Below are positions 6,412-35,363 of a stretch of 64,000 nt of DNA, in pieces; the first letter of the stretch is position 1, and the number at the start of each line of letters is the position of its first letter. The DNA is taken from the IMG/VR virus record IMGVR_UViG_3300044631_000551, positions 1 to 64,000 of that record; one strand, written 5' to 3'. A program made the translations under genes and the position numbers. A model generated the notes under the pieces. It worked only from the letters and a program-made list of their open reading frames with translations. It was not told the origin of the DNA and did no database searches. The stretch comes from a virus.

Positions 6412-7287
6412 TTATCCGAGGATATTATCTCGAATATCCTTTATCCAGTATTTAGTAGCTTCGCCATTTTGTTTTATTCTATTATAGGTCGAAGCTGGTA
6501 GATAATCCTCGACCTGTTCGGCATAATCTAGATAGATATCAAACGGATATCCGAACGTTTCTTCTGGATACAGATCTTCATATTTCTTGATAGCTGGCAT
6601 CCAAAAGTTAATTACGATAGATTTAGAAGCCTTGATGTTATGTATTACTGTTTCTCTAGCTGAAATGGCAGTACCAATTAACACGTCGTGCTTCATATTA
6701 TAATGACGAGGTAGATTGGACTGTTGCTTGGTATTCGTTAGTTCTTGTAATAATGCACCATCAACAGCAGGAATTTCTTCAACCTTATCCATATTTACAG
6801 CAAAGACATTAGCATCAAACGCGCTATCGTTTTTAGGAAGCCCAATCATGTGGTACATGTTTAGTCGTTTGTTATCGCCATAGACACGAGGTTTGCTAAT
6901 TGCCAGTCTATGAGTTTCTAGAAGATCTATAATTTCATTTGTAAATGGATCTTTAAGAATCAATGCGCCAGCTGAGACAATAAAATGTTTTCCTTTACTA
7001 TTAAGACCAGCCAATACATCTATCGTAGAACTAACAGTATTGTTTTGATCCCAATCGTCAACTACGAACACTTCTGTTCCACAGAAATTAGTGACTAGTT
7101 TATCATAGTCTTTGAATATCTCAAACTCAGAACTTTTGTGAATGTTCTCTTCGTACATTTTATTGTACTTATCAACTTGAGATCTTGGCACCAAAACTAC
7201 TAGCTTATCGTGCGAAGAGTTCTTTAGGGCTGATTTGATTGTTAGAAACGAACCATGGTGCGTTGCTATAATAACTAAAGTTTTCAT
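6412..7287 (-). CDS. Hypothetical protein, degenerate GT8-like glycosyltransferase fold
   Basis: FDANVFAVNMDK resembles GT8 FNAGVLLINLxxW; LPRHYN and IVINF resemble GT8 C-terminal motifs; the expected DxD appears as SAG. Confidence 0.45.
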   Translation of the reverse strand: MKTLVIIATHHGSFLTIKSALKNSSHDKLVVLVPRSQVDKYNKMYEENIHKSSEFEIFKDYDKLVTNFCGTEVFVVDDWDQNNTVSSTIDVLAGLNSKGKHFIVSAGALILKDPFTNEIIDLLETHRLAISKPRVYGDNKRLNMYHMIGLPKNDSAFDANVFAVNMDKVEEIPAVDGALLQELTNTKQQSNLPRHYNMKHDVLIGTAISARETVIHNIKASKSIVINFWMPAIKKYEDLYPEETFGYPFDIYLDYAEQVEDYLPASTYNRIKQNGEATKYWIKDIRDNILG

Positions 7288-8186
7288 TCTTTGTGCTTGT
7301 ATGTTTCTTTCATGTGAGTAAAATACTTATCGATTCGTTCCTGATAGTTGTCGTGATATACACAGACAAATCCAGATTCAGGGTGCGAAAACAAAGCAGC
7401 GAGCTTATTGTAAAGTGTATCCTTGACGCCACAGCGGTCAAGAGCATTGTAAACGTGTTCGAATGTTCCACGACCTTTGCGTTCTTTTAGATCGATAAGA
7501 CCAAGTTTCTTTCCTAAGATAGTAGCTGATAATCCAGTTTCAGAACTCATACAGAAGTATGCTTTTTCGCATTTCTTTAGAAGTGGATACAGAGCCACGT
7601 CATTATTGATACACTTGTCACCCCAACGTTTCATCAGCATGGTCTGCCAAACCTTAGCAGTAATCGGATGCAGTTTAACATATGCGCCATCGGCTACGAG
7701 CTGATCAATTTTTTCCATGTCACACCATCCGCCCTCTTTAGTCAGCAGATTAGTTCCAGGAAGAATTACAAGTTCTTTTACAGGTAGATCGCTTTCTTCG
7801 TCAAGCAAATACTTGTCAGTTAGATTAGCTTTCAGTTTAGCAACAATAGCAAGACCTTCTTCGGTTGGTCCTTTTTTAATCACATTGATCAAATTCTGAA
7901 CAGAAATCGTAGAGTTACATGGCGAAATCATTACAACTTTAGTCAACAAATCTGTATACTTGTAGCCATGAATGCGATCTTTAGGTGATTCGTACGAGAT
8001 ATCGTATTCAATCTTAACACCATTTATAGTCTTAGGAATCAACTTAGAGATGTTTGCTAGTTCGTCGTTTTCATCAGAACGTAGTGCATTTCCAGTTTTC
8101 ATAAAATGTGTAACTGAGTCGCCGAGCCATTCGTTCGACGACATGTACATAAATGGTTTCTTTTTCTTTTTGACTTCTTCTACCAT
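7284..8186 (-). CDS. KpsS/KpsC-like (Capsule_synth) GT-B glycosyltransferase-like protein
   Basis: YVKLHP and LLKKCEKAYFCMSSETGLSATILGKKL resemble the KxHP and LL..ad.V.T..StvG.EAll.GKpV motifs of capsule-synthesis transferases. Confidence 0.55.
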   Translation of the reverse strand: MVEEVKKKKKPFMYMSSNEWLGDSVTHFMKTGNALRSDENDELANISKLIPKTINGVKIEYDISYESPKDRIHGYKYTDLLTKVVMISPCNSTISVQNLINVIKKGPTEEGLAIVAKLKANLTDKYLLDEESDLPVKELVILPGTNLLTKEGGWCDMEKIDQLVADGAYVKLHPITAKVWQTMLMKRWGDKCINNDVALYPLLKKCEKAYFCMSSETGLSATILGKKLGLIDLKERKGRGTFEHVYNALDRCGVKDTLYNKLAALFSHPESGFVCVYHDNYQERIDKYFTHMKETYKHKE

Positions 8187-8200
8187 AACAAAATCCTCGA

Positions 8201-8356
8201 TTATTTTTCTAAATCTTTTACTCGTTTTTTCAACGATTTAATTTCTTTCTCGATATCAATCATTTTCTGTAGAACTACTTCTACGAAAGATTCGAGTTTG
8301 CGATTTACCATATCGACGTTCACTGGAGCGCCATTTTCATCAGTTTGTATATTCAT
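8201..8356 (-). CDS. Small coiled-coil protein (51 aa, MNIQTDENGAPVNVDMVNRKLESFVEVVLQKMIDIEKEIKSLKKRVKDLEK)
   Basis: Not in ORF track; strong AAGGAG RBS; fills the gap between neighbours; AATAAATA upstream at 8378-8385. Confidence 0.75.
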   Translation of the reverse strand: MNIQTDENGAPVNVDMVNRKLESFVEVVLQKMIDIEKEIKSLKKRVKDLEK

Positions 8357-8383
8357 AATATTCTCCTTTTCATATTATATTTA

Positions 8384-11300
8384 TTACGTGCTTCTAGAAG
8401 TTTCAAAGCTGGTTGTTGTATCATATGTGGTTGTAGTAGACTTATTCGTATCGAACGTAGTCGTTTTACTTGTAGCAAAAGTCGTAGTCTTCGACGTATC
8501 AGTATTAAACACAGTGTTGGTTAAGAACACAGTGGATGTTGCAAACGTCGTTGTATATGTTGTATCAAATACGGTAGAAGTTGATTTGCTGGTTTCTTTG
8601 TTGGTATCAATCGTGGTATCACGGCTGGTACTGGTTGCAACAATAGTCGTTGTTTGGAATATAGTAGAAGTTCCAAACGTCGTAGTATATGTAGTCGTCG
8701 TATCAAACACACTAGTTGTTGATTTGCTTGTAGCAGTCAAGAAGTTAGTCGATCTACTTGTACCAATAGTTGTCGCGCGAGTAGTGTTCGTTCCAAATGC
8801 AGTTTCAGTACCAAACGTCGTAGTTGTATTTAAGCCAGTGTCAAAGATAGTATCGTAGGCTGTGGCAGTTGACTTACTGGTTGACGTAGCCTTCGAGGTA
8901 TCAGTAGATTTACTGGTTGACACGGTTGTATCAGTTGCTTTATTAGTATCAAACGTTGTATTAAACGCAGTAGTCGTACCAAAAGCAGTTGATTTAGAAG
9001 TTACAGTTGCTATATTTGTAGACTTAGTTGTATCTGTTGCTTTACTGGTTGATGCAGTCGTGTCAGTTGCTTTGTTCGTAGCAAAGAAGGTCGCATACGT
9101 CGTGGTTGTTCCAAACGTTGTAGTTTTAGAAGTATCAAACGTTGTATCAAATACGGTAGTTGTACCGAACGTTGTAGTTTTAGAAGTATCAAACGTTGTA
9201 TCAAACGTGGTAGTGGTAGCAAAAGAAGTAGTTTTGCTGGTATCAGTTGACTTGCTAGTAGAAACAGTAGTGTCCGTCGACTTGCTTGTGTTAAATGCAG
9301 TCGTGTAGGCAGTCGTTGTTCCAAACGTTGTAGTTCTAGAAGTGTCCGTTGTTTTACTTGTAGACCCAGTTGTATCAGTAGACCTGCTGGTGCTTACGGT
9401 TGTGTCGGTTGCTTTGCTTGTGTTAAAGACTGTGGTGTAAGCTGTAGTGGTATCAAACGTCGTGGTTCTGGAAGTATCAAACGTCGTATTAAACGTTGTA
9501 GTTGTACCGAACGTTGTAGTTTTACTTGTAGCAAACGTAGTATTAAACGTCGTTGTAGTAGCATACACAGTGGTCTTTGACGTATTAAACGTTGTGTTAA
9601 ATGTAGTAGTTGTAGCAAATATCGTCGTGGTTCCACGAGAAGTATCAGTAACTCGGGAAGTAGAACCAGTTGTATCAAACGTCGTATTAAACGTTGTGGT
9701 TGTGCCATACGTTGTAGTACGAGAAGTATCGGTTGCTCTAGAGGTAGAAAGCGTTGTGTCTTTTTCAGCAGTGCTGAGTGTAATTACGACACCTCTAGTT
9801 AAGTTTTTATTTCCCGCATCATTTTGTCCTATACGAACGTTGATATATCCTTGGGCAGATAAAAATGGCATTTCTTGATATTTTACTGCTGTTCTACTGT
9901 TAGTAAATTCGCCTTGTGTTACATCTACACCACCTGCAAATCCTAAAAAGTTTCTTGTTCCTGGCAACGCAGACGCGCCATAAAAACCAAAAACAATAGA
10001 TTGTGAACTGTCAACAGTTACAGCGTTATTTGCTGGTGCCGTGTCTATTGGGTTTGCGGTTGTTCCGACAAAAGAGGTAGTAACACCTGTAATTCTAACA
10101 CCTACGCCACCAGTAATCAATACTAATATTTTATCGTTTTGTGTCGCAGCGTTAATACCAGTAACTGTTGCGCCAATATCACCAGACGCCAGTACCTTAT
10201 AAGAACAGTTAAACGCAGCACGACCTGTACCAGCAGTGTTATTTGCAGTGTTTGCGATATTAGTCCAGTTTGTAGGTAAGACGTTTGTAACAGAAGTTGT
10301 TGTTGAGTTATAACCAAAGTCAAACAAGACAGCAACTTGTCCAACAGCTGCGGTGCCTGGAATTGCAATAGTTGAACCTGTAGATGTGGTACCACTATCA
10401 ACCGAAAATATTGACGTTGCAGTAAATGCTGTAATATACGTCGTATTAAATGTTGTGGTTGTAGCATACGTAGTCGTTCTGCTTGTATCAGTTGCTCTGC
10501 TTGTTGAACCAGTTGTATTAAATGTGGTACTAAATGTCGTTGTAGTACCAAATATCGTCGTTGTTCCACGAGAAGTATCAGTGGCTCGAGAAGTAGAACC
10601 AGTCGTATCGTAGGTTGTAGTCTTGCTTGTATCGGTTGCTTTACTGGTAGAACCAGTTGTATCAAATGTAGTTGTTCTGCTAGTGTCTGTTGTCTTTGAA
10701 GTAGAACCAGTCGTAGCATAAGATGTTAATCTTGAAGTTGCTGTCGCCTTAGAAGTACCTTGCGAAGTTTCAAATGTTGTTGTAGTTGCGTATGACGTAT
10801 TAAACGTGGTCGTCGTAGCAAATATTGTATTAAACGTAGTTGTTGTACCGAACGTCGTTGTACGAGAAGTATCAGTGGTTTTACTTGTACCTTGTGTGGT
10901 ATCAAAATTAGTTGTGGTCGCATACGAAGTATTGAATATCGTAGTCGTAGCAAACACTGTCGATCGGCTTGTGTCAGTAGCTTTGCTCGTGGAACCAGTT
11001 GTATTAAACATCGTTGTTCTGCTAGTGTCAGTGACTTTACTAGTAGAACCAGTTGTATTGAACGTTGTTGTTTTGCTTGTGTCGGTGGTCTTGGTCGTAT
11101 CTTGAGAAGTATCAAACACAGTAGTCGTAGCAAACGTAGTGTTAAACGTCGTTGTTGTAGCAAATGCTGTATCAAATACAGTAGTCGTAGCAAATGTAGT
11201 CGTTATAGTAGTATCGGTAGTTCTAGACGTTCCTTGCGACGTATTAAACACAGTCGTTGTTGCGTACGAAGTATTAAACGTCGTTGTCGTAGCAAATGTA

Positions 11301-11992
11301 GTCGTAGTATCGAATACAGTAGAAGTTGCTCTTGAAGTCGCAAAATTAGTAGTGACTAGAGTGTTCGTACTTCTGGTTGTCTGTGTTGTAATAACTGTAT
11401 CGGTTGTGAACGTCGTAATGTAAGTTGTTTCAAAACTAGTAACAAACGTGGTCGTAGTATCAAATACAGTAGTCGTTGACTTAGAAGTAGCAGTAACATT
11501 AGAAGTCGATGCAGTGGTATCGGTAGTTCTACTAGTATTAGTTAAGAACGCAGTATCTGTATTAAACGTTGTAACAAACGTCGTAGCGAAAACGGTATTA
11601 AACGCAGTAGTTGTTGACTTGCTTGTAGAAGCAGTAGTCAATCTATTTGTGTCGGTCAATCTTGATGTAGCAGTATCAAGATTAGTTAGTGTAGCATAAA
11701 CAGTTGTTTTGCTAGTATCAAACGTCGTGGTTTGACTTGTCTCAAATACCGTAGTTGTAGATTTAGTAGTACCAGTTGCACGCGACGTTTCAAAGACAGT
11801 AGCAACTCCAGCAGAAGCGCCATAGAAGTCAGAAAACTTAATAGTTCCAGATGTAGGAATCGCAGCATTAATCAGTGTGTTAGCCACAAACACACCACCA
11901 CGATAATACTCAGAAATTGAGTGTGGTGCTGTACCGCCAAACTCTAGGGCGATGCTTGATAAACTAATTGTGCCAGAAAACGGCAATGGCAT
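8384..11992 (-). CDS. 1202-aa Thr-rich virion protein: fibre-tip attachment N-terminus, two mirror-complementary Thr arms, central globular domain
   Basis: N-terminal SGTISLSSIALEFGG..SISEYYRGG..PTSGTIKFSDFYG motif, typical of genes following S74-chaperone fibres; TTTF/TSK repeats flank a ~220-aa beta-rich domain. Confidence 0.85.
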   Translation of the reverse strand: MPLPFSGTISLSSIALEFGGTAPHSISEYYRGGVFVANTLINAAIPTSGTIKFSDFYGASAGVATVFETSRATGTTKSTTTVFETSQTTTFDTSKTTVYATLTNLDTATSRLTDTNRLTTASTSKSTTTAFNTVFATTFVTTFNTDTAFLTNTSRTTDTTASTSNVTATSKSTTTVFDTTTTFVTSFETTYITTFTTDTVITTQTTRSTNTLVTTNFATSRATSTVFDTTTTFATTTTFNTSYATTTVFNTSQGTSRTTDTTITTTFATTTVFDTAFATTTTFNTTFATTTVFDTSQDTTKTTDTSKTTTFNTTGSTSKVTDTSRTTMFNTTGSTSKATDTSRSTVFATTTIFNTSYATTTNFDTTQGTSKTTDTSRTTTFGTTTTFNTIFATTTTFNTSYATTTTFETSQGTSKATATSRLTSYATTGSTSKTTDTSRTTTFDTTGSTSKATDTSKTTTYDTTGSTSRATDTSRGTTTIFGTTTTFSTTFNTTGSTSRATDTSRTTTYATTTTFNTTYITAFTATSIFSVDSGTTSTGSTIAIPGTAAVGQVAVLFDFGYNSTTTSVTNVLPTNWTNIANTANNTAGTGRAAFNCSYKVLASGDIGATVTGINAATQNDKILVLITGGVGVRITGVTTSFVGTTANPIDTAPANNAVTVDSSQSIVFGFYGASALPGTRNFLGFAGGVDVTQGEFTNSRTAVKYQEMPFLSAQGYINVRIGQNDAGNKNLTRGVVITLSTAEKDTTLSTSRATDTSRTTTYGTTTTFNTTFDTTGSTSRVTDTSRGTTTIFATTTTFNTTFNTSKTTVYATTTTFNTTFATSKTTTFGTTTTFNTTFDTSRTTTFDTTTAYTTVFNTSKATDTTVSTSRSTDTTGSTSKTTDTSRTTTFGTTTAYTTAFNTSKSTDTTVSTSKSTDTSKTTSFATTTTFDTTFDTSKTTTFGTTTVFDTTFDTSKTTTFGTTTTYATFFATNKATDTTASTSKATDTTKSTNIATVTSKSTAFGTTTAFNTTFDTNKATDTTVSTSKSTDTSKATSTSKSTATAYDTIFDTGLNTTTTFGTETAFGTNTTRATTIGTSRSTNFLTATSKSTTSVFDTTTTYTTTFGTSTIFQTTTIVATSTSRDTTIDTNKETSKSTSTVFDTTYTTTFATSTVFLTNTVFNTDTSKTTTFATSKTTTFDTNKSTTTTYDTTTSFETSRST

Positions 11993-11994
11993 TA

Positions 11995-13659
11995 TTAATC
12001 CTTACTGAGTTGTGCTTTCAACTCATCAATTTGAATCTGTTGTTCTTTAATTGCTTCAATTAAAAGTGGAATTAATCTCTCATATTTAACCGTCATATAT
12101 TTGTTATCAATTGGTGCAGGTGCTACGACTTCTGGCATAATAGCATTTACTTCTTGCGCAGAAACACCGACATGCATTTCTTTTTGATAGCCGAGATCTT
12201 GAGCTGTAATGTTTGGTTCGTAATAGAAACCATTTAATGATTTAACTTTTTCTATCGCGTTTGAAATGTTTGAGTATCTATCTTTTAGTCGGTCGTCTGA
12301 GAAGAATGCTGTAATGTCGCCTGTGGCTGTAATGGCAGTCTGTACAGCAAACGATGAAGTATTGCTATTGCTTACAGTAGACCATATTGCGCGCTCGGCT
12401 CCAGTTGTAGAAGCAACATAAAATACGAAGTTGTCATCAGATTGATGAACTAGCCTTGCTCCATTACCAGCAGTAGGATTATTAAAAACAATTCGTTTAT
12501 CATTAGCGATTGTCAATATATCATTAATTTTTGTATTAGATAGACTTACATTTGATGTATATGTTAATGCAGTTCCGTTGTAACCAAATGTTGATGGTGC
12601 TGTACCAAACTTAATAAACCCCAAGCTAGAGTTTTGTTGACCTTTTAGACCTACAGTATCAGCAAGGTTGACATCACCTAACCAAGCATCATCACCAATT
12701 CTATAGTTTGTTCCGTTTCCGTTGTTTGCTGCAGTGTAATAATCTGCAGATACAATACCAGATACGTTAGCAAACCCAGTGACGGTTGTATTGCCAGCGG
12801 CAAGCGTACCTGTTACGTTAGCAAAACCAGTTATAGTCGTGTTACTAAGTGTAGAACTTGTCGCTAATACTACACTTCCAGTACCAGTGACACTTGAGAA
12901 ACCAACAAACTCTGCATTCCAACCAGCTGCACCGTTACCAGCCGTAAGATCAATGGAAGTACATAATGCAACCGTGCCTGGAAGAACTGTAATTACAGTA
13001 GCAGCGTTGGCTGCTCTTACTTCAACGTTGCCGGTCGAATTGTTGACAATTAGGAATCCTTGACCTAATGTCATTGTTTGTGGAGCAGGTAACGACAATA
13101 CTTGAGTCGTCGTACCCGTAAAGAACTGCATGTAGTTACTTGATGAAGTTAGTACAGTTGTACCAGCCGCAGTTGCAGTCGTACTGTAACCGTGCTTAAT
13201 ATTGTTAAATATTGGATTAGTGGTATTTAATGTTCCTGAAATAGTAACATTTGATGTAATCGATGTATTAGTACTGGTAATATGAGTATTAGTACCAGAT
13301 AGAGTCGCGTTGCTAGTTATCGTAACCACACCACCTAAGTTAGTCGTACCTGTTACTGATAGAGCGTGAGCAGGAGTTGTGTTGCCTATACCAACGCGAT
13401 TATTAGTACCGTCAACAAATAGAACACCGCTGTCAAAGTTTGCATTACCACTAGTTTGTGTAAATGCGGTTCCGACAACCATACTTGCAAGGTTCGCGCC
13501 AATTTCAAATGTCGCTGAACCATTGGAAGACAACAGTTTCCTGTCGGTAAGGTTGATTGCTAATTCACCTGCGGCGATGTACGAGGTGTTAGATACGTTG
13601 CTTACGTTGGGTAGTAAGCCAGTGGTAGTTGTTCGTTTAATTTGAAATCTATTTGGCAT
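11995..13659 (-). CDS. Tail fibre with C-terminal peptidase S74 intramolecular chaperone
   Basis: FSDDRLKD...GVSAQEV..IMPEVV...VKYERLIPLLIEAIKEQ; N-terminal FQIKR...GELAINLTD docking-type motif. Confidence 0.88.
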   Translation of the reverse strand: MPNRFQIKRTTTTGLLPNVSNVSNTSYIAAGELAINLTDRKLLSSNGSATFEIGANLASMVVGTAFTQTSGNANFDSGVLFVDGTNNRVGIGNTTPAHALSVTGTTNLGGVVTITSNATLSGTNTHITSTNTSITSNVTISGTLNTTNPIFNNIKHGYSTTATAAGTTVLTSSSNYMQFFTGTTTQVLSLPAPQTMTLGQGFLIVNNSTGNVEVRAANAATVITVLPGTVALCTSIDLTAGNGAAGWNAEFVGFSSVTGTGSVVLATSSTLSNTTITGFANVTGTLAAGNTTVTGFANVSGIVSADYYTAANNGNGTNYRIGDDAWLGDVNLADTVGLKGQQNSSLGFIKFGTAPSTFGYNGTALTYTSNVSLSNTKINDILTIANDKRIVFNNPTAGNGARLVHQSDDNFVFYVASTTGAERAIWSTVSNSNTSSFAVQTAITATGDITAFFSDDRLKDRYSNISNAIEKVKSLNGFYYEPNITAQDLGYQKEMHVGVSAQEVNAIMPEVVAPAPIDNKYMTVKYERLIPLLIEAIKEQQIQIDELKAQLSKD

Positions 13660-17170: not shown

Positions 17171-17497
17171 TTATCTCGTAACTTCAGGGTTGATAGTAAC
17201 AATGCCTTCAACGATTCGAGAAACGACATTGCCAGAAGAAACCAATTCTAAATCCCATACGTATCTACCACCAGTAATGTTTGCGCTTGTAGCAGCATTC
17301 ATAGAAATGGTAATTACACCATTTGCAGCACCAGTGACAGTGAACGAATTATAGGTTGTAGAGGTGTAGTGCTTGCGCATCTGCGAACGACCTGTGTAAG
17401 TCGTTAGATTAATTGGAGTACCAGCATCATCTGCAACTTCAATCGTTGTCGCGAAGTCGGTGCCTTGGTCAATGAATAGATTTAGTTTGGTTGCCAT
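17171..17497 (-). CDS. Conserved small virion structural protein (BppU-N-like adaptor)
   Basis: NLFIDQGTDF...INLT.YTGRSQMRKHY...GRYVWDLEL...RIVEGIVTINPEVT pattern. Confidence 0.75.
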   Translation of the reverse strand: MATKLNLFIDQGTDFATTIEVADDAGTPINLTTYTGRSQMRKHYTSTTYNSFTVTGAANGVITISMNAATSANITGGRYVWDLELVSSGNVVSRIVEGIVTINPEVTR

Positions 17498-17506: not shown

Positions 17507-18376
17507 TTATTGAATTTCGCTAGTATATTGTTCCGTATCGCCATCAACAATTGTCGTCACAATAGTTCCAACAATGGTATTAAATACAGTATCGGTAGAT
17601 CTAGAAGTTGATGCAGTCGTAGATTTTGATATCGATGCACCAGTAGCAAACACCGTATCATATTTAGTGGTTGTACCATAGAACGTATTAAATGACGTTG
17701 TTGTTGCGGTCGCTTTAGAAGTAGACTTAGAGGTTGATTTACTGGTATCATAAACCGAACCAAATACAGTAGTTGTTGCAAAAGAAGTATTTTTGGAAGT
17801 ATCAGTCGATCTAGAAGTATCAGTTGTTCTAGAAGTTTCATTTCCTGTTAATGTTAATTTGCTAGTTTCTCTTGTGGTTCCAACTGCTATATCACTACCT
17901 GATTCTTTATCAAAAATAAATGTAAATGTATCTGTTAGATAAGTCGTAGTGGTATTTACACCACCAGTAATATAGGTTGTAGTCGTACCATATACAGTAG
18001 TCGTCGCATATGTTGTTAATATTGTTGTATCTGTACTGCGAGCTGTACCAGTTAAAGTGCTTCTACTTACTTCTTTAGTAAGAAAAACTGGTTCGCCAGA
18101 TACTGTAGTTGTTATTGTTGTATTATATGTTGTAGTCGTTGAAACTTCATTAGAAGTTCCGAATACAGTATTATAAACAGTGTCATAAACTGTTGTAGTA
18201 TTTGTAGATTTGGATGTTAGCTGGCTTGTATCAGTTAATTTTTGCGTTTCAAAATTAGTATCATATCCAGTAACATAAAGAGTTACAAACGTAGTGTTAA
18301 ATACTGTTGATGTTGAACGCGAAGTTTGTCCTGTCGTTTGTCTAACAATATAAGAATTTAACAAAAACCCGCCCAT
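17507..18376 (-). CDS. 289-aa Thr-rich protein with nested mirror-complementary segments
   Basis: Same TTTF/TSK repeat alphabet as the 1202-aa protein; follows directly after the 575-aa fibre. Confidence 0.8.
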   Translation of the reverse strand: MGGFLLNSYIVRQTTGQTSRSTSTVFNTTFVTLYVTGYDTNFETQKLTDTSQLTSKSTNTTTVYDTVYNTVFGTSNEVSTTTTYNTTITTTVSGEPVFLTKEVSRSTLTGTARSTDTTILTTYATTTVYGTTTTYITGGVNTTTTYLTDTFTFIFDKESGSDIAVGTTRETSKLTLTGNETSRTTDTSRSTDTSKNTSFATTTVFGSVYDTSKSTSKSTSKATATTTSFNTFYGTTTKYDTVFATGASISKSTTASTSRSTDTVFNTIVGTIVTTIVDGDTEQYTSEIQ

Positions 18377-29183: not shown

Positions 29184-29192
29184 TTATGTACC

Positions 29193-32100
29193 TTATGGGT
29201 TTGTGTTTAGCACTGTGTCAATGACAGTGTCAAAAACGGTATCTGTATCAACAACTGTTACATAAGCAGTGGCTGACGAAGTATTTATAGCGGTTGATGT
29301 AGACTTCTGAGTATTAAACTTAGTAGAAATCGCTGTTGTATATTGCGTAGCATTCAACACAGTTCCAGTCAAATTAAACAGCGTATCTGTATAGAACTTC
29401 GTATCAAAAGTTGTATTTTTAGTTGTTGATGTTTCTTTGTTGGTAGAAATTGTAGTATTTAAAGCTGTATCATAAGTGGTTACAATAGTTGTTAGGCTCT
29501 TAGTCTGAGTTGCGTAAGTCGTTGATTTACTGGTATCAGTATTATACGCTGTTGTTATTGTCGTATCATAAACTGACGATGTCGATTTACTTGTGGCAGT
29601 AGACTTAGTTGTATCAGTATTGAATACTGTAGAAGTAGAAGCAACAGTTGCGCTGATCTTGGTGGTATCAGTATCAAATACCGTGCTGGTAGACTTGGTC
29701 GTAGCGGTATCAATAGCAGTATCTGTATTAAATACAGTCGAAGTCGACTTCGAAGTCGCAGTCGCTATATTTGTAGCGATCTTAGTATCAGTCGACTTGC
29801 TTGTTGATGTCGAATATGCAGTAGCAGTATCGTAAATAGAAATTGTTTCATATACTGTCGAGAAAGTTGAATCAGTTTGAACAATCGTTGCTGTATTTAT
29901 GGTAGTATCAGTAGACTTCGATGTTCCTTTCGTAGTTTCGAACGTAGTTCCTTTACTTGTTGTAGTTAAGAATACTGTATCAAATAATGACTGAGTATTG
30001 TAAACTGTAACATATGATGTTAATGTATTGAATACTGTGCTGGTTAGCGCAGAAGTTGAAGTAGACTTGCTCGTTGATCCAGTTGTGCTAATGGCGGTGT
30101 CGCGCGCAGTATTTGTTTGGAACAATGTAACTGTATCGAATATAGTTGATGTTGCAAACGTTGTATTAAACGCAGTCGTAGTATCAAACACAGAAGAAGT
30201 TGATTTACTTGTTCCAGTTAGCGCAGAAGTATCAAATGTCGAAGCCGTGGCGAACACTGTATTGAATGCGGTTGTGGTATCAAACACAGTAGCATAAGTT
30301 GTTAGCGTCGCATAGATTGTAGCGAAACCAGTCGTAGTCGCGTATGCGGTAGTACGAGAAGTGGCAGTCGCTTTGTTAGTATCATATGCAGTTTCAAACG
30401 CAGTCGAAGTATCGAACACGCTAGTTGTTGCCTTAGATGTGCTAACTGTGGTATCGGTTGATTTGCTGGTTCCAGTAGACTTAGAAGTTGAAGCAGCTGT
30501 TTCTGTCGCTTTAGAAGTAGAAGTCGCTTTAGAAGTAGAAACCACAGTATCAAACGTTGTATCATACGTGGTCACATAAGTCGTAGTTGTATCAAACAAC
30601 GTCGTGGTAGATCTAGAAGTACCAATTGTGGTATCTGTTGATTTGCTGGTAGAAGTCGACTTAGAAGTCGAAGCAGATGTTCCAGTTAAATTCGAAGTAG
30701 CAGTAGACTTAGATGTAGAATTTGTAGTGTCAAACGTAGTATTATATGCAGTTACAAATGCTGTCGTTGTATTAAACACAGTCGTAGTCGACTTAGAAGT
30801 ACTCCTACCCGTTTCTATTGTAACCTCTTCTTTAGTTTCTGCATCGATAAAAGTGGTATCATATGCAGTAACATAAATCGTAGTTGTAGATTTAGAAGTA
30901 CTCGTTGCTTTAGAAGTCGTCGCACTTGTTGCTGCAGATGTATTAAACGTAGTGTTAAACGTTGTTGTCGTGTTAAACGCGGTAGTTGTATTAAACAACG
31001 TTAAGTATGCAGTTGTAGTGTTAAACACAGTCGTAGTGGCATACGCAGTATCATATAAAGTCGAAGTAGACTTAGAAGTCCCTGTCGTCTTAGAAGTTAA
31101 TTTAGACGTAGAACCTGTAGTATTAAACGTTGTATCAAACGTTGTTGTAGTATTAAACGTTGTTGTGGTGTTAAATACAGTCAAGAAAGTTGTAGTCGTA
31201 TCATATGCAGTTGTTGTTGCGTATGCTGTATTGAACGTCGTCGTCGTGCTTCTCGAAGTACTGGTAAATCTATTAGTACCAATTTGTGTTAGATACGTCG
31301 TTGTTGTATTAAACGCAGTAGAGATCGTGGTGTCAGTAGATTTTGACGTTTCTTTGGTTGTCTCTGTGGCTTTACTTGTTTGAGCACTGGTGCTTGTAGA
31401 CTTAGTGGTCGAACCAGTAGTATTAGTTTCAATTGTTGTACCATACACAGTAGTTGTATTAAACAACGTGGTCGTTGATTTTGAAGTCGCCGTTGCTTTT
31501 GAAGTGGCGCCAGTCGTATCAGTTGACTTACTTGTTGCTGTTAAAGCAGAAGTTTGTGTTGAGAAAACAGTTTGATATGCTGTATCAAACGTAGTATTAT
31601 ATGTTGTAGAAGTAAACGCACCGCTACCAGTAGTTGTTAGTTTACTTGTTGCCGTTGAAGCAGAAGTTTCTTTACTTGTAGAAGTATCGCGTTCGGTAAT
31701 CTTTGAAGTATTAGTGCTAAAGAACGTATCAAAAGCAGTATCATATTTCGTAGTGTAAGAAGTCGTCGTAGCATACGCTGTCGAGGTATCGTAAACCGAG
31801 TTAGTTAGACGCTTAGTAGAACGATTTGTGTCTGTATAAACCAACGTTGCAGTCGCAATAGTTGTGTCGGTATTAAACACAGTAGTGGTCGCAATGGCAG
31901 TATCAAATATGGTCTGAGTATTAAACACAGAAGTTGTAGATTTACTGGTAGCAGTTACATATGCTGTCGTTGTGTTAAATGTACTTGTTGTAGATTTATT
32001 AGTCGATGTAGCATATGCAGTTATAGTGTCAAAAACTGATGACGTAGATTTATTTGTTGCAGTGGCAAATGTCGTTGTTGTATCGTATGCAGTCGTGGTC

Positions 32101-35100
32101 GTTTTACCAGTACCATATGCAGTAGATTTTGACGTTTGAGTTGCAAACTTAGTATCAATCGTTGTAGAAGTATACAACGCAGTCGCTGTTAAAAAATTAG
32201 TGGCAAATGCTGAATCGGTGTACTTAGCAGTTCTATAATTTGTATCAGACAAATATTCAGTTGTAGTGTTTGTAGATTTTGAAGTACCTGTTTCCGTTGA
32301 AACTGCAGTTGAATATGCTGTACCAAGCGCAGTTTGCTTAAATGTATCTGTCGACTTAGAAGTATCTTTATTAGTTGCATAAGAAGTTGCAACTGTTGTC
32401 AATACTTCGCCAGTTGTAAAATATGTCTGAACATCTGTTGGACGCGACGTCGCAACCTTAGTAATGATATCAGTTTGTTTATTTGTCAGCGTAGTTACAT
32501 CTGTGTCTAAAGTCGTGTCTTTGAACTTGGTATTGTAAAAAGTTGCAAACTCAGTTTGGAACGAAGTATCATAAATCGTGTTGATAGTAGTCAACAGATT
32601 TGTCATAAATGTCGTGCCAGTAAACTTCTGCGTGTCGACTGTGGTATCTTTTGAAGTAGCATACGCAGTTGTAGTCGCAATCTTTGTTGCGTACGCTGTT
32701 AAGAATACAGTTGTTGTTACGCCAGCAGTTCGAGTGGCTCTGGTCGTCGCATATGCAGTTTGAACTATTGTACCAGCACCACTGTCTGTAGAGATCTTAG
32801 TATCAAACGTGGTGGTCGTATTTGTAAAGTAGCTGGTAACAGTAGCAGTTACTGGTAGAGTATCAATTGTTATGGCTGTATCTACTAACGTATTTGTGTC
32901 ATACGTTGTTGTTGTGGACACACTAGTATCAAATTTTGTAGTACGAGTTGTATCAATCGTAGTATCAGTATTGTAATTGGTAGTGGTATTAATTGTTGTA
33001 TTGACTAGAGTTCCGCCACTGGTATTAAAAATTGTATCGTATGTGGTAGAATAACTTGAGTTGATAGCTGTGCTTCTAGACGTGGCAAAAGCAGAAGTTT
33101 CTGATACTGTAACTTCTTTTGAACAAGAGTAAGACCAGACTCCAGGAGGAGCGTCATTAAGGAAAATACAATCATCAAATGTAAATCCTTTCGCAGCAGC
33201 ATCCGCTATCGCAGCATTTTGATTGACAAATCCAGTTTCACTAGCGGAAGTTGTAAATGTTGTATCTGCAGTTATACTTGTATCAAACACAGTTGTTGTG
33301 AAGAAGTTAGTTACAACAGATGTTTGGAAGTTAGTAGCAGCAACACCGCTTAGAGTACCGTAGCTGGTAGCAGTTGTTTTAGATGTGCCAGTCGCATACG
33401 CAGTAGCAAATTTAGTGCTTCTACTAGTATCATATACTGTAGCTGTACTCTTAGTCGTAGCTGTATCTCTAGCTTCTTGGCCAGCATACGTTGTGCTTGT
33501 ATAAACAATTGTTCCTACAGCAGTATTAATTGCAGTGGCAGTAGTAATTAACGTGCTAAATGCAGTTGTTGTAGAGGTCGAAATTGCTGTTTCGAATGTG
33601 GTATCGATAGCAGTTTCGCGCTTTGTCAAGAACGAAGTTCCATATGCAGATGTGGTTAGATACTCCGTCGCAATTGTAGTCGCGCCAGCAGTTTCTGTAA
33701 ATCTGCTTGTTGTAACACCAGTAGAAGTCGTAAGTGTTGTAGAAGTAGAAGTTAGATACTGAGTTTCTAGATAATCAATTAGAGCTTCTAGGGTGGTTCC
33801 ACGAGAAACAGGAACAGATTGAATTACAGTTCTACCAAATCTTTCCATACCAGCTGGATGCCACAAATCACGAAGAATGCTAGAATACTTGTTAAACGCA
33901 GTAACAGCTTGAACTTCGTATGAATATTCTTGGTAATAATAATTGTCGTGAATATACTTGTCAGAGTTTAAGAAACCGCGAGTAGATTTAAAGAATCCTT
34001 CGCCCTTACCCTGACCAAGATAATCAATTGTACCTGTTGCAACATGCGAAGCATTCGTTACACTTGTTAGCGAAACAGTCGTATTGTTAGTGTAGCCAAC
34101 ACCAGAATTATAGATGGATACAGTAGAAACAGCACCAGGACCACTACCAGAAACGCCAGCAATATTTGCATTGAAACCGAGGAATCCGCCAGCTCCATCA
34201 GACAGACGAAGCGGATAAATTAAATTATCGACGATTGCTACGTTTACGTTTGCTTGATAACCACCACCAGGATTAATATTTGTTAATGTAGCAATTGTAC
34301 CATAAGTGTAGGTGTTTAATGTAAAAATACCATTAAACGCAGTCAAATATGTTGCAGATGTATTTGATGAAAATGCAGTATAAGCTGGGGCTGCAGCATT
34401 AATTTGAATACTAAGCGCGTTAGTAATTGGCGTAGAAGTCAAGTCAATTGTGCTTGTATTGCTTAATGATCCAACATCAAAAGACGCAACGCTGGTTGGC
34501 GTTTCGCCTAGTGATGGTGTAACTGTTTCAGAAGCAGTTAATGTAAAACCTGTACCACCATTTCTAATGTCAAAAGTTACAACACCTTGTAGTCTTTGCA
34601 GACCAGTTACAATGGCTTGACCATTTACACCATCACCGCCAACAACGTTGACGAGTTCACCAAGAGAAAAACCAGGAGAGCTACCGAGAACTTGAATGCT
34701 AGAAAGTGATCCGTAAACTTTTGGACTATCTGTAACTTCGATGCCCAAGTCGTCTATTACATCTAAATTGATAATTTCTTCATCTGCCGCAAATGTTCCG
34801 ACAATGTCAGTAATATACAAAATATCGTGGCGCTGATTACCAGTTACAAATACTTTATAATCATCTACGAAAGCTGTCGCCCCAGAAATGCGACCAGTAA
34901 TCGTTTTACCGATATATGATGCAATGTTTGCATTATATTCTAGCTCCAAGTATCTTGGAACAAGCCATTGTGAATCAGATGCACGGATTACGTCTGTTCC
35001 AGGAGAATAGACGTTAATGTCTTCGTTGAATAAAACGCGGAATAATAATTCTAAACCACGTTCTGTGCCTTTAGAAGAGTATAATTCTTTGATGTGTTTT

Positions 35101-35363
35101 TGTAGAAGACGTTTATCTGCAGCAACATCAAGCGGAATACCATGCATGTATTTTTTACGAAAATAATCTACGAACTCATCAAGAGTAGTATCAATATCGC
35201 GCCAAGTTGGTAGTCGACGAGCGTCGTAGATTACTTGATTAGTTTGTTCTAACCACTCAAAATATGCTCTAACAAATGCAACGAAAGTTGGTCCTTCTTC
35301 TCGGTAGATAGAAGGAAACTGACTTTCAATGAGTGGAGAAATTAACTTCTCAAGGTCTTTCAT
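29193..35363 (-). CDS. gp7: Baseplate wedge initiator (gp7-like) with ~1500-aa Thr-rich C-terminal extension
   Basis: IESQFP..REEGP.FVAFVRAYFEWLE, LYSSKGT, HDNYYYQEYSY..HPAGM..FG; lies between gp6 and gp8. Confidence 0.82.
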   Translation of the reverse strand: MKDLEKLISPLIESQFPSIYREEGPTFVAFVRAYFEWLEQTNQVIYDARRLPTWRDIDTTLDEFVDYFRKKYMHGIPLDVAADKRLLQKHIKELYSSKGTERGLELLFRVLFNEDINVYSPGTDVIRASDSQWLVPRYLELEYNANIASYIGKTITGRISGATAFVDDYKVFVTGNQRHDILYITDIVGTFAADEEIINLDVIDDLGIEVTDSPKVYGSLSSIQVLGSSPGFSLGELVNVVGGDGVNGQAIVTGLQRLQGVVTFDIRNGGTGFTLTASETVTPSLGETPTSVASFDVGSLSNTSTIDLTSTPITNALSIQINAAAPAYTAFSSNTSATYLTAFNGIFTLNTYTYGTIATLTNINPGGGYQANVNVAIVDNLIYPLRLSDGAGGFLGFNANIAGVSGSGPGAVSTVSIYNSGVGYTNNTTVSLTSVTNASHVATGTIDYLGQGKGEGFFKSTRGFLNSDKYIHDNYYYQEYSYEVQAVTAFNKYSSILRDLWHPAGMERFGRTVIQSVPVSRGTTLEALIDYLETQYLTSTSTTLTTSTGVTTSRFTETAGATTIATEYLTTSAYGTSFLTKRETAIDTTFETAISTSTTTAFSTLITTATAINTAVGTIVYTSTTYAGQEARDTATTKSTATVYDTSRSTKFATAYATGTSKTTATSYGTLSGVAATNFQTSVVTNFFTTTVFDTSITADTTFTTSASETGFVNQNAAIADAAAKGFTFDDCIFLNDAPPGVWSYSCSKEVTVSETSAFATSRSTAINSSYSTTYDTIFNTSGGTLVNTTINTTTNYNTDTTIDTTRTTKFDTSVSTTTTYDTNTLVDTAITIDTLPVTATVTSYFTNTTTTFDTKISTDSGAGTIVQTAYATTRATRTAGVTTTVFLTAYATKIATTTAYATSKDTTVDTQKFTGTTFMTNLLTTINTIYDTSFQTEFATFYNTKFKDTTLDTDVTTLTNKQTDIITKVATSRPTDVQTYFTTGEVLTTVATSYATNKDTSKSTDTFKQTALGTAYSTAVSTETGTSKSTNTTTEYLSDTNYRTAKYTDSAFATNFLTATALYTSTTIDTKFATQTSKSTAYGTGKTTTTAYDTTTTFATATNKSTSSVFDTITAYATSTNKSTTSTFNTTTAYVTATSKSTTSVFNTQTIFDTAIATTTVFNTDTTIATATLVYTDTNRSTKRLTNSVYDTSTAYATTTSYTTKYDTAFDTFFSTNTSKITERDTSTSKETSASTATSKLTTTGSGAFTSTTYNTTFDTAYQTVFSTQTSALTATSKSTDTTGATSKATATSKSTTTLFNTTTVYGTTIETNTTGSTTKSTSTSAQTSKATETTKETSKSTDTTISTAFNTTTTYLTQIGTNRFTSTSRSTTTTFNTAYATTTAYDTTTTFLTVFNTTTTFNTTTTFDTTFNTTGSTSKLTSKTTGTSKSTSTLYDTAYATTTVFNTTTAYLTLFNTTTAFNTTTTFNTTFNTSAATSATTSKATSTSKSTTTIYVTAYDTTFIDAETKEEVTIETGRSTSKSTTTVFNTTTAFVTAYNTTFDTTNSTSKSTATSNLTGTSASTSKSTSTSKSTDTTIGTSRSTTTLFDTTTTYVTTYDTTFDTVVSTSKATSTSKATETAASTSKSTGTSKSTDTTVSTSKATTSVFDTSTAFETAYDTNKATATSRTTAYATTTGFATIYATLTTYATVFDTTTAFNTVFATASTFDTSALTGTSKSTSSVFDTTTAFNTTFATSTIFDTVTLFQTNTARDTAISTTGSTSKSTSTSALTSTVFNTLTSYVTVYNTQSLFDTVFLTTTSKGTTFETTKGTSKSTDTTINTATIVQTDSTFSTVYETISIYDTATAYSTSTSKSTDTKIATNIATATSKSTSTVFNTDTAIDTATTKSTSTVFDTDTTKISATVASTSTVFNTDTTKSTATSKSTSSVYDTTITTAYNTDTSKSTTYATQTKSLTTIVTTYDTALNTTISTNKETSTTKNTTFDTKFYTDTLFNLTGTVLNATQYTTAISTKFNTQKSTSTAINTSSATAYVTVVDTDTVFDTVIDTVLNTNP

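What the first reader, a model, noticed from the sequence alone, without database searches (positions are those of the whole stretch)
6412..35363. Candidate new system: Thr-zipper virion appendages at three attachment sites plus dedicated modifying enzymes
The same complementary code occurs in three separate genes. Two directly follow a fibre gene (554-aa fibre then 1202-aa protein; 575-aa fibre then 289-aa protein) and one is fused to baseplate gp7. GT-like genes sit alongside. Inference: a modular, length-programmable filament system, possibly O-glycosylated on the alternating Thr face, for reaching through capsule or S-layer, adhering to surfaces, or shielding the virion. Regular TxT arrays also recall ice-binding surfaces, an alternative role.
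Basis: inference. Interest (0 to 1): 0.85.

Follow-up and report, generated by a model that had tools for sequence, protein, structure and literature searches.

The report
Mirror-coded threonine fibres on phage
Three tail-module genes of an uncultured lake phage encode threonine-rich stretches whose two halves match residue by residue when one is read backwards, which most likely means each chain zips back on itself into a very long thin fibre, and a conserved pair of enzyme-like genes travels with them.

Summary
The window is a T4-like myovirus from lake water; its closest cultured relative is Stenotrophomonas phage DLP6. Three genes carry Thr-rich arrays: the gp7 fusion (29193-35363), a 1202-aa protein (8384-11992) and a 289-aa protein (17507-18376).

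The "complementary code" is real and very strong.
- In the 1202-aa protein one gap-free mirror register pairs residues 65-540 with 727-1202.
- In that register 64 of 66 Lys/Arg face Phe/Tyr. Shuffles give 14.6±3.1.
- All 64 pairs lie on one residue parity, and the arms hold no Pro.
- gp7 holds a hairpin of 505 pairs. The 289-aa protein holds nested hairpins of 70 and 31 pairs.
- Relatives keep the arms matched while length varies from about 58 aa of array to 751 pairs. DLP6 gp7 and Caulobacter phage Lullwater gp41 show the same code.

Most likely these are single-chain two-stranded antiparallel beta-ribbon stalks. AlphaFold2 did not predict the arms.

The 291-aa gene has a GT-A (GT8-like) fold. 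In 46 of 53 motif-selected loci a relative of the 300-aa gene lies directly after an array gene; its fold is unresolved, with weak KpsC-like signals. Glycosylation is plausible but untested. The ice-binding idea is not supported.

I found no paper describing this. This scan had already noted the same code in at least 6 other genomes.

The parts
29193..35363 (-). gp7 fusion, 2056 aa: baseplate-wedge N-domain followed by about 1500 aa of Thr array
   Evidence: lies between gp6 (35363-37156) and gp8 (27462-29183)
33804..35363 (-). gp7 N-terminal baseplate-wedge domain (aa 1-520)
   Evidence: phrog_17744 E 8e-132 and PF23786 33.9 bits. Relatives found in 39 IMG/VR loci.
30855..32387 (-). gp7 hairpin 1, N-arm (aa 993-1503)
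   Evidence: Gapped mirror alignment: 505 pairs, 4 register breaks, 58 of 67 K/R face aromatics. On the ungapped core 1248-1503 | 1518-1773, 30 of 30 K/R face aromatics. No Pro, His, Cys or Trp.
30813..30854 (-). gp7 hairpin 1, 14-residue turn (aa 1504-1517)
29298..30812 (-). gp7 hairpin 1, C-arm (aa 1518-2022)
32643..33722 (-). gp7 candidate hairpin 2 (aa 548-670 | 789-907) with a 118-aa loop that holds 2 Cys. Weak.
   Evidence: Score 38; only 7 of 15 K/R face aromatics. Composition.
18378..20105 (-). 575-aa fibre-like gene directly upstream of the 289-aa array gene
   Evidence: An orthologue is kept in relatives.
17507..18376 (-). 289-aa array protein. Outer hairpin aa 14-83 | 202-271 (70 pairs, no break, 8 of 9 K/R). 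Nested hairpin aa 117-148 | 171-201 (31 pairs, 4 of 4 K/R).
   Evidence: The orthologue in L092 is 520 aa with hairpin 14-502.
17171..17497 (-). 108-aa LtfC-like / tail-fibre-assembly-like protein
   Evidence: phrog_1084 E 2.7e-28 and phrog_3304 E 8.7e-24. Pfam LtfC is below its cut-off.
11995..13659 (-). 554-aa tail fibre with a C-terminal Peptidase_S74 intramolecular chaperone domain, directly upstream of the 1202-aa gene
   Evidence: PF13884 32.8 bits against cut-off 22; 12 tail-fibre PHROGs
11801..11992 (-). 1202-aa protein: N-terminal 64-aa non-repeat anchor domain
   Evidence: Conserved at 57-81% identity in relatives, including 126-128-aa short forms. phrog_30374.
10388..11800 (-). 1202-aa protein: N-arm (aa 65-535)
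9800..10387 (-). 1202-aa protein: all-beta tip domain (aa 536-731) at the mirror centre
   Evidence: AF2 pLDDT 50-86. BFVD Foldseek gives 17 hits at E<=0.001; the named ones are actinophage minor tail proteins. PDB Foldseek gives nothing at E<=0.001.
8387..9799 (-). 1202-aa protein: C-arm (aa 732-1202), running to the last residue
8201..8356 (-). 51-aa ORF between the array gene and p300
   Evidence: no Pfam hit. DLP6 has a small ORF in the same place.
7284..8186 (-). p300: conserved partner gene of array genes. Enzyme-like invariant residues. Fold unresolved, with weak KpsC / polysialyltransferase-like signals.
   Evidence: phrog_26179 E 1.9e-82. Linkage. Profile results. Atlas lead.
6412..7287 (-). 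p291: GT-A fold, GT8/GT24-like
   Evidence: AF2 pLDDT 90, pTM 0.89. Foldseek PDB: 503 hits at E<=0.001, led by glycogenin, UGGT, XXYLT1, LgtC and GlyE. No Pfam hit.

Best explanation
STRUCTURE. Each Thr array is a self-complementary chain that folds back on itself into a very long two-stranded antiparallel beta ribbon (a giant beta hairpin).
- One face carries cross-strand Thr:Thr pairs interrupted every 4 or 6 residues by one aromatic (Phe/Tyr) facing one Lys/Arg, or more rarely Gly, Gln or an aliphatic residue.
- The other face carries small and polar residues.
- The aperiodic 4/6 spacing, together with which strand carries the aromatic, works as an address. Only one register fits, and length can change only if both arms change together.

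THREE FORMS IN THE VIRION GENE MODULE. Lengths assume a fully extended ribbon.
- Fused to baseplate protein gp7: 505 pairs, about 160-175 nm.
- A 1202-aa protein: a 64-aa anchor, 471-pair arms (about 150-160 nm) and a distal all-beta tip domain of a fold seen in phage minor tail proteins. This suggests a thin fibre that presents a binding head.
- A 289-aa protein with two nested short hairpins.

PARTNER GENES. p300, the gene that follows array genes in many phage lineages, and p291 (GT-A fold) most likely modify the arrays, by glycosylation of Ser/Thr, or help them assemble.

SHOWN: the mirror code, its statistics, its conservation, the gene linkage, and the GT-A fold of p291.
INFERRED: the beta-ribbon structure, monomeric versus oligomeric state, virion attachment of the two free proteins, function as reach/adhesion fibres, and any glycosylation.
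For: MIRROR CODE IN THE WINDOW.
- Mirror register from the Thr mask alone: 68.8 against a next best of 17.3.
- On that register 64 of 66 K/R face aromatics. Ar:Ar is 2 (11 expected) and K/R:K/R is 0.
- All 64 pairs sit on one parity over 476 residues. That face is 135 T:T plus aromatic pairs; the other face is T/S/A/D/N/V/G. Key spacing is 4 (56 times), 6 (39 times) and 2 (7 times).
- There is no Pro, His, Cys or Trp in 942 arm residues of the 1202-aa protein or in 1016 arm residues of gp7 hairpin 1.
- Token-shuffle nulls give z of 39, 28 and 6 for the three proteins.
- DNA cannot explain it.

RELATIVES. Counts are K/R facing aromatics.
- DLP6 gp7: 35 of 40.
- L084, 1319 aa: 627 pairs, 74 of 76.
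- L064 homologue: 751 ungapped pairs, 106 of 106.
- gp7 orthologues: 587, 613 and 677 pairs.
- Lullwater gp41: 95 pairs, with 0 of 200 shuffles reaching its score.

OTHER SUPPORT.
- The mirror centre coincides with a tight turn in gp7 and with a globular domain in the 1202-aa protein.
- Tip fold.
- Linkage of p300: 46 of 53 and 14 of 16.
- p291 fold.
- A Pfam-recognised GT4 gene follows array and p300 genes in L100.
- The ORF after p300 in L116 matches the p291 family at 77.7% probability.
- The gene is present with 0 differences in contigs of lake metagenome runs of 2018, 2020, 2023 and 2024.
Against: - AlphaFold2, with a 3-row alignment, gave the 100-residue arm segments as coil at pLDDT about 29. 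No structure predictor supports the ribbon.
- No long isolated two-stranded ribbon of this size is known to me (recall).
- gp7 hairpin 2 is weak: 7 of 15 K/R. Two short gp7 relatives score only slightly above shuffles: 56 vs 43±3.6 and 45 vs 26±3.0.
- The gapped score rewards aromatic:K/R pairs, so k-of-n counts from gapped alignments are partly optimised. Only the shuffles control for this.
- p291 has no Pfam GT hit and no DxD where I expect one (inference).
- p300 gives nothing significant: KpsC E 0.62; Capsule_synth in 3 of 30 members with best E 0.023; nothing in the record itself.
- Phage Cr30 has a p300-like gene but no array in the 34 kb examined.
- No CMP-sugar genes in the 84-kb record, which is about half a genome.
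- No proteomics exist for any member. The DLP6 paper has no mass spectrometry and no mention of such fibres in the passages I searched.
Confidence: 0.62

Rival explanations
1. The hairpins do not stand alone. Three chains associate so that three hairpins form a six-stranded needle, like a greatly elongated needle of the T4 long-tail-fibre tip gp37, with the tip domain as its head. This would apply to the two free proteins that follow trimeric-fibre genes.
For: - Both free array genes directly follow fibre genes, one of which has a trimer-type S74 chaperone domain.
- A distal head domain sits at the fold-back point.
- The gp37 needle is a known fold-back fibre. I read passages of PMC6957217; the fold-back topology itself is recalled.
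Against: - gp7 is present as one chain per wedge in T4 (recalled), so the gp7-fused copy has no obvious trimer partner.
- There is no His in any arm, so no HxH iron sites.
- Oligomeric state was not tested here.
Confidence: 0.25
2. p300, and perhaps p291, is not a glycosyltransferase. It is a dedicated folding or assembly factor for the arrays, as the gene after a fibre gene often is in phages.
For: - p300 lies immediately downstream of array genes in 46 of 53 loci and in Lullwater.
- p300 has no significant match to any GT family.
- p291 lacks a recognisable DxD (inference).
Against: - The invariant residues of p300 are polar and enzyme-like: D62, K125, Y126, N146, K171, H173, P174.
- These residues align with the K-x-H-P and S-x-x-G...LGK stretch of KpsC.
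- p291 has a confident GT-A fold.
- A true GT4 gene sits in the same module in L100.
Confidence: 0.25
3. The complementary arms pair between molecules, as antiparallel dimers or arrays from different genes, rather than within one chain.
For: - Mirror complementarity alone cannot tell intramolecular from intermolecular pairing.
- The cross score of the 1202-aa protein against reversed gp7 is 241.
- Another note of this scan reports a two-gene version (not tested by me).
Against: - The mirror centre falls on a 14-residue turn in gp7 and on tight turns in relatives.
- The arms of the 1202-aa protein start right after the anchor and end at the last residue.
- The cross score is explained by shared modules.
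Confidence: 0.07
4. The arrays are disordered, mucin-like Thr-rich linkers, or ice-binding TxT surfaces, without a defined paired structure.
For: - High Thr/Ser content.
- AF2 gave the arms as low-confidence coil.
- The source is lake water.
Against: - A disordered linker has no reason to keep a residue-exact mirror register over 471-751 pairs across diverged relatives.
- There is strict two-residue alternation and no Pro.
- There is no TxT periodicity.
Confidence: 0.04

Closest known systems
Needle domain of the phage T4 long-tail-fibre tip protein gp37
   Same: Each chain runs out to a distal head and folds back, so N- and C-side strands lie antiparallel in a thin beta needle that carries the receptor-binding tip. 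The topology is recalled. The needle and its seven iron sites come from passages of PMC6957217.
   Different: - gp37 is an obligate trimer held by His-coordinated iron, and its needle is only on the order of a hundred residues per arm (recalled).
- Here the arms are 471-751 residues, hold no His and carry an aperiodic Thr:Thr / aromatic:Lys-Arg pairing code.
- One copy is fused to gp7.
C-terminal extension of the gp7 'baseplate wedge subunit protein' of Stenotrophomonas phage DLP6 (KU682439)
   Same: - True homologue and closest cultured relative: gp6 is 46.6% identical.
- Its gp7 (1288 aa) has a hairpin at 685-1264 with 35 of 40 K/R facing aromatics.
- It has p300 and p291 homologues before gp13.
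   Different: - The array is shorter.
- The gene in the position of the 1202-aa protein is an unannotated ORF without Thr arrays.
- The DLP6 paper does not describe the feature: 0 occurrences of 'threonine' and no fibre description in the passages searched.
Serine-rich-repeat adhesins of Gram-positive bacteria with dedicated glycosyltransferases (for example GlyE acting on PsrP)
   Same: - A long Ser/Thr-rich stalk presents a binding region.
- GT genes are encoded beside it.
- GlyE is among the structural matches of p291.
   Different: - Those stalks are simple repeats without mirror complementarity, and they are exported through an accessory Sec system (recalled).
- Glycosylation of the phage arrays is untested.
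Single-layer beta-sheet proteins and designed beta-hairpin peptides with cross-strand aromatic-Lys pairs (OspA, Trp-zipper type; recalled)
   Same: Beta structure stabilised by cross-strand side-chain pairs without a buried core. Thr and aromatic:cationic pairs are used.
   Different: Those span tens of residues. Here there are hundreds of consecutive pairs in a natural virion protein.
KpsC/KpsS beta-Kdo transferases and polysialyltransferases (CMP-sugar-dependent, HP motif)
   Same: - The p300 profile aligns its invariant K-x-H-P and S-E-x-G...LGK stretch to KpsC 6mgb.
- Capsule_synth is hit by 3 of 30 members and A-2_8-polyST by 1 of 30.
- An Atlas lead points the same way.
   Different: - All matches are below significance: E 0.62 and best E 0.023.
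- p300 is only 300 aa.
- The family HMM finds nothing in the record.

Membership tests
T4 gp7 baseplate wedge protein | Sequence match of the wedge domain | tested here: met
   phrog_17744 E 8e-132; PF23786 33.9 bits against cut-off 27
T4 gp7 baseplate wedge protein | Position between gp6 and gp8 in the baseplate operon | tested here: met
   gp6 phrog_219 E 6e-167; gp8 phrog_438 E 1.8e-71. The order is the same in DLP6.
GT-A glycosyltransferases, GT8-like (p291) | GT-A Rossmann-like fold | tested here: met
   Model pLDDT 90. Foldseek PDB top hits are glycogenin, UGGT, XXYLT1, LgtC and GlyE at E about 1e-8, probability 1.00, TM 0.39-0.49.
GT-A glycosyltransferases, GT8-like (p291) | Match to a curated GT family model | tested here: not met
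   No GT family at E<=5 for the protein or E<=1 for 33 family members. PDB sequence profile: nothing relevant.
GT-A glycosyltransferases, GT8-like (p291) | DxD metal/sugar-nucleotide motif after the fourth strand | tested here: inconclusive
   The strand at aa 100-105 is followed by S-A-G, with G107 invariant. D-D-W-D at 77-80 follows the third strand, with D80 invariant. The placement is my inference; no residue-level structural alignment was available because pdb_via was not on the machine.
KpsC/KpsS-type (Capsule_synth) transferases (p300) | Family HMM above cut-off | tested here: not met
   0 hits in the record. 1 of 37 and 3 of 30 members hit only sub-threshold, best E 0.023.
KpsC/KpsS-type (Capsule_synth) transferases (p300) | HP motif and following S..G...LGK nucleotide-sugar-domain stretch | tested here: inconclusive
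   Aligned to KpsC 6mgb over 67 profile positions at E 0.62. K171, H173 and P174 are invariant in 30 diverse members.
gp37-needle-type fold-back fibres | N-side and C-side strands antiparallel about a distal head | tested here: met
   At sequence level only: a mirror register with the tip domain at its centre.
gp37-needle-type fold-back fibres | HxH iron-binding sites along the needle | tested here: not met
   0 His in all arms
gp37-needle-type fold-back fibres | Homotrimer | not tested
   No oligomer job was run. The one complex job went to the gp7 arms.
Ice-binding TxT beta-solenoids | Regular TxT ladders | tested here: not met
   Thr autocorrelation at lag 2 is negative; peaks are at lags 4 and 6. 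The Thr face is interrupted by aromatic:K/R pairs.
Endosialidase-type intramolecular chaperone fibres (554-aa neighbour) | Peptidase_S74 domain at the C-terminus | tested here: met
   PF13884 32.8 bits against cut-off 22, aa 454-512

The most novel reading that the evidence does not exclude
Phages have evolved a protein analogue of the nucleic-acid hairpin.
- A residue-level pairing code specifies the register and length of single-chain beta-ribbon fibres up to about 250 nm. The code is Thr:Thr and aromatic:Lys/Arg on one face, large:small on the other, written with aperiodic 4/6 spacing.
- The fibres grow or shrink by matched changes in both arms.
- They are mounted on baseplates and fibres of unrelated phage families.
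- They depend on a dedicated, still unclassified KpsC-like enzyme (p300), with a second glycosyltransferase, that decorates them with sugar.
Probability: 0.4. Interest if true: 0.95.

Novelty: categorically new. Interest (0 to 1): 0.86.

Why it matters
If the ribbons are real, they are a fibre architecture not described for any virus or cell.
- They would be monomeric, core-less, hundreds of residues per strand, and addressed by a simple side-chain code.
- That bears on how phages reach their hosts in dilute lake and sea water.
- It bears on protein-folding theory: how does a 470-pair hairpin find its register?
- It bears on protein design, as a programmable, length-defined nanofibre.

The module is widespread. 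It occurs in cultured phages (DLP6, Lullwater), so it can be tested directly. p300 would define a new enzyme or chaperone family tied to it.

Tried and rejected
STRUCTURE PREDICTION AND FOLD SEARCHES.
- ESMFold2 complex job on the two gp7 arm segments 1404-1503 and 1518-1617: score 0.00. The verdict was no answer, so it is not evidence either way.
- PDB Foldseek of the tip model: nothing at E<=0.001.

SEQUENCE SEARCHES THAT LED NOWHERE.
- phmmer of the 289-aa protein against 1.84 billion representatives: 0 hits, not even itself. I take this as composition filtering, so it is uninformative.
- tblastn of the 289-aa protein against cultured phages: no match. The low-complexity filter was on.
- Word search with the tip domain: 0 scored hits.
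- The search for related loci with the 289-aa protein: only 4 close relatives.
- p300: PDB profile searches, Pfam per member, the PF05159 model on the record and hhalign against the L100 GT4 protein gave nothing significant.
- CMP-sugar genes PF02348 and PF03102 in the record: none. The record is about 51% complete.

REJECTED EXPLANATIONS.
- A DNA-level inverted repeat as the cause of the mirror code. There are only 14 short scattered inverted repeats. Codon complementarity is 0.319, against 0.27-0.30 in shifted registers. TTT:AAA pairs follow codon usage.
- Recent tandem duplication. TRF finds few, degenerate arrays.
- Cross-protein mirror scores as a null model. The arrays share modules, so the cross score of 241 is not a clean control.

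READ MAPPING. The joints and loose ends among co-occurring strains could not be interpreted. I use only the zero-difference tiling.

LITERATURE. Searches found no description of such arrays.

CAVEATS ON COUNTS.
- The 80 motif loci are the stored part of at least 118 hits.
- They include near-duplicates (for example L138/L142, L117/L161, L132/L151, L143/L157) and were not deduplicated for the 46-of-53 count.
- Of 30 and 75 array ORFs, I gave shuffle controls only to those named.

Full report
WHAT THE WINDOW IS. The window is the first 64 kb of an 84-kb IMG/VR virus record estimated at 51% complete. PHROG and Pfam scans show a T4-type structural operon on the minus strand. The gene order is:
- gp6
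- a 2056-aa gp7
- gp8
- two VrlC-like proteins
- a 575-aa fibre-like protein
- the 289-aa Thr protein
- a 108-aa LtfC-like protein
- an 86-aa ORF
- a 572-aa fibre
- a 405-aa protein
- a 554-aa fibre with an S74 chaperone domain
- the 1202-aa Thr protein
- a 51-aa ORF
- p300
- p291
- gp13, gp14, gp15, gp17 and gp18

The closest cultured phage is Stenotrophomonas phage DLP6 (gp6 46.6% identical), with the same gene order. The 1202-aa gene occurs in 18 lake-water metagenome runs at 93% or more of sampled words, 6 of them flagged as possible sources. Contigs of runs from 2018, 2020, 2023 and 2024 tile it with 0 differences. It is therefore not an assembly artefact.

THE OBSERVATION. The three proteins are 29-37% Thr. 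Thr does not alternate as TxT: autocorrelation is negative at lag 2 and peaks at lags 4 and 6.
- I used only a Thr/non-Thr mask and no gaps. One antidiagonal of the 1202-aa protein (residues 65-563 against 704-1202) scores 68.8. The next best scores 17.3 and the 99th percentile is 12.0.
- With the register fixed by that mask, I counted residue classes over 476 pairs (65-540 | 727-1202). There are 157 T:T pairs (91.8 expected) and 64 aromatic:Lys/Arg pairs. Shuffles give 14.6±3.1 aromatic:Lys/Arg pairs, maximum 25 of 5000. There are 2 aromatic:aromatic pairs (11 expected) and 0 basic:basic pairs.
- 29 of 29 K/R in the N-arm and 35 of 37 in the C-arm face an aromatic. Shifting the register by ±2 to ±12 gives 0-24 such pairs.
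- All 64 pairs fall on one residue parity. That face consists of 135 T:T pairs plus aromatic pairs. The other face is T/S/A/D/N/V/G, and almost no Phe lies on it.
- Key pairs are spaced 4 (56 times), 6 (39 times) or 2 (7 times) residues apart, in no periodic order.
- The 942 arm residues hold no Pro, His, Cys or Trp.

THE OTHER TWO GENES.
- gp7: the ungapped core 1248-1503 | 1518-1773 has 30 of 30 K/R facing aromatics. It continues, after a 2-residue slip, as 1061-1247 | 1772-1958 with 22 of 26.
- A gapped mirror alignment of gp7 gives 505 pairs (993-1503 | 1518-2022) with 4 register breaks around a 14-residue turn.
- A second gp7 hairpin, 548-670 | 789-907, around a 118-aa loop with two Cys, is weak: score 38, 7 of 15 K/R.
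- The 289-aa protein has an outer hairpin 14-83 | 202-271 (70 pairs, no break, 8 of 9 K/R) and a nested one 117-148 | 171-201 (31 pairs, 4 of 4).
- Against nulls that shuffle Thr-terminated tokens, and so keep composition and local grammar, the scores are 462 vs 150.7±8.0, 388 vs 120.0±9.5 and 58 vs 30.9±4.4 with a maximum of 46 of 200.
- The gapped score rewards aromatic:K/R pairs and was written after I had seen the pattern. Only the shuffles, and the mask-only test above, are independent of it.

NOT A DNA EFFECT. TRF finds only short, degenerate repeats. Inverted DNA repeats are 14 short scattered pairs, none collinear with the mirror. Paired codons are reverse-complementary at 0.319 of bases, against 0.27-0.30 in shifted registers. 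TTT:AAA pairs (19 of 64) follow codon usage. Thr codons cannot mirror into Thr codons, so the symmetry is kept at the protein level.

RELATIVES. Thirty-nine IMG/VR loci encode gp7 relatives.
- In many of the closer relatives (N-domain 52% identical or more) gp7 is 997-2432 aa with 321-1883 Thr-rich residues. Three loci at 52% identity (L019-L021) have none.
- The more distant relatives have none, and DLP6 does.
- Hairpin sizes: gp7 orthologues have 587, 613 and 677 pairs, each 2.5-3.5 times their shuffles. DLP6 gp7 has 282 pairs with 35 of 40 K/R, scoring 235 vs 52±5.7.
- A second clade (p291 about 40% identical) has 1169-1319-aa proteins that are one hairpin end to end. For example, L084 has 627 pairs and 74 of 76 K/R.
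- The closest homologue of the 1202-aa protein is split into two ORFs in L064. Read with an X at the break, it gives 751 ungapped pairs with 106 of 106 K/R. In the shared outer 216 pairs, 160 are identical on both sides, and partners of aromatics change among K, R, A, N, I, Q, G, L and V.
- Other relatives reduce this gene to 126-128 aa, that is the anchor plus about 60 residues.
- The orthologue of the 289-aa protein is 520 aa with hairpin 14-502.
- Two short gp7 forms score only a little above shuffles.

WIDER SPREAD. Of the 80 stored loci, 75 hold an array ORF of at least 100 Thr-rich residues. Complete ones again show whole-length hairpins: L116 has 753 pairs and 94 of 97 K/R; L138 has 709 pairs and 90 of 91. 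These include a phage with a non-T4 terminase and portal (L132). In the cultured Caulobacter podophage Lullwater, gp41 (215 aa) is a 95-pair hairpin scoring 67 vs 28.2±3.6, with 0 of 200 shuffles reaching it. Notes of this scan report the same code in at least 6 other genomes. I did not test those.

STRUCTURE INFERENCE. Four features fit a two-stranded antiparallel beta ribbon, in which directly opposed residues share a face:
- strict two-residue alternation over hundreds of residues;
- beta-branched Thr;
- no Pro;
- a mirror register centred on a turn or a domain.

At 0.32-0.345 nm per residue (textbook value) the stalks would measure as follows:
- 1202-aa protein: 151-162 nm
- gp7: 162-174 nm
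- 289-aa protein: 22-24 nm and 10-11 nm
- L064 homologue: up to about 250 nm

Prediction does not back this. AF2 of residues 441-826, with a 3-row alignment, left both arm segments as coil at pLDDT about 29. Whether ribbons stand alone or bundle, for example as a gp37-like six-stranded needle, is open. The gp7 fusion argues that one chain can suffice, since gp7 is one copy per wedge in T4 (recalled).

THE TIP. The 196-aa centre of the 1202-aa protein is all-beta (pLDDT 50-86). It has no PDB match at E<=0.001. It has 17 matches at that level among predicted viral structures, and the named ones are actinophage minor tail proteins. Homologous tips occur in L064 (47% identity) and L069 (27%). This fits a binding head at the far end of the stalk, with both chain ends at the anchor. 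The 64-aa anchor is conserved. What it binds was not tested.

THE NEIGHBOUR GENES.
- p291 folds with pLDDT 90 and pTM 0.89. It matches GT8/GT24 GT-A enzymes, namely glycogenin, UGGT, xyloside xylosyltransferase, LgtC and GlyE, at E about 1e-8. It has no Pfam or PDB sequence match. Where I expect the DxD it reads S-A-G, which is an inference.
- p300 has no significant match anywhere. A profile of 30 diverse members aligns its invariant K-x-H-P and S-E-x-G...LGK stretch to KpsC at E 0.62. Three of 30 members touch Capsule_synth (best E 0.023) and one touches polysialyltransferase. The Atlas lead agrees.
- Linkage is the strong result. In the motif-selected loci, 46 of 53 array genes with at least 1200 nt downstream are followed within 700 nt by a p300-family gene. 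The 7 exceptions include two gp7 fusions. p291 is detected in 13 of 46 of these by HMM.
- One further ORF after p300 matches the p291 family at 77.7% probability, and two more only at about 5%.
- In L100 the gene after p300 is a Pfam GT4 glycosyltransferase.
- Cr30 has a distant p300-like gene before gp13 but no p291 and no array in the 34 kb read.

Modification of the arrays by these proteins is therefore a reasonable but untested reading. A chaperone role for p300 is the main rival.

COMPARISON AND NOVELTY. The nearest known design is the fold-back needle of T4 gp37. The nearest known system logic is the serine-rich-repeat adhesin with its own glycosyltransferases. Neither has the mirror code, the length or the gp7 fusion. 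Seven full-text searches found no description. The DLP6 paper does not mention it in the passages I searched. I rate the fibre design as categorically new on sequence evidence, with structure and chemistry still to be shown.

Noticed in passing
window 59930-63045 (-): A 675-aa CHASE2 plus adenylate/guanylate cyclase protein (Pfam 127.8 and 60.5 bits) and an adjacent FecR-domain protein (49.3 bits) are encoded in a T4-like phage. Other notes of the scan also name CsgG/CsgF-like genes nearby; I did not test those.
   Followed up: partly
window 37823-40829 (-): The gp5 region is split into three ORFs of 391, 315 and 295 aa. The latter two are paralogues, each with a gp5-like N-part and a lysozyme/endolysin-like C-part.
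   Followed up: no
L005 36272-38866 and L062 3-1655 (DLP6 KU682439, both ends of the record): A long unannotated ORF runs across the ends of the linear DLP6 record, in the position of the 1202-aa gene. Its N-terminus resembles the anchor and its body is not Thr-rich. Its C-terminus looks Hint-like to me (recalled motif, untested). There was no Pfam hit for the first 865 aa.
   Followed up: partly
L211 6333-7855 (Caulobacter phage Lullwater NC_047860, gp41-gp42): In a cultured podophage, a 215-aa Thr-rich protein forming a whole-length mirror hairpin is followed by a p300-like gene, between the tail fibre gene and the holin gene.
   Followed up: yes
L100 177-10769: In another phage lineage a collagen-repeat tail fibre is followed by two array proteins (1149 and 974 aa), a p300-like gene and a GT4 glycosyltransferase.
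   Followed up: partly
L064 4330-4400: The closest homologue of the 1202-aa gene is split by a frame change at the start of its tip domain. This may be a real frameshift or a sequencing error; it was not resolved.
   Followed up: no
L052 4100-7180: Between the array ORFs and p300 lie four short co-directional ORFs (194-268 aa). This may be a fragmented gene.
   Followed up: no
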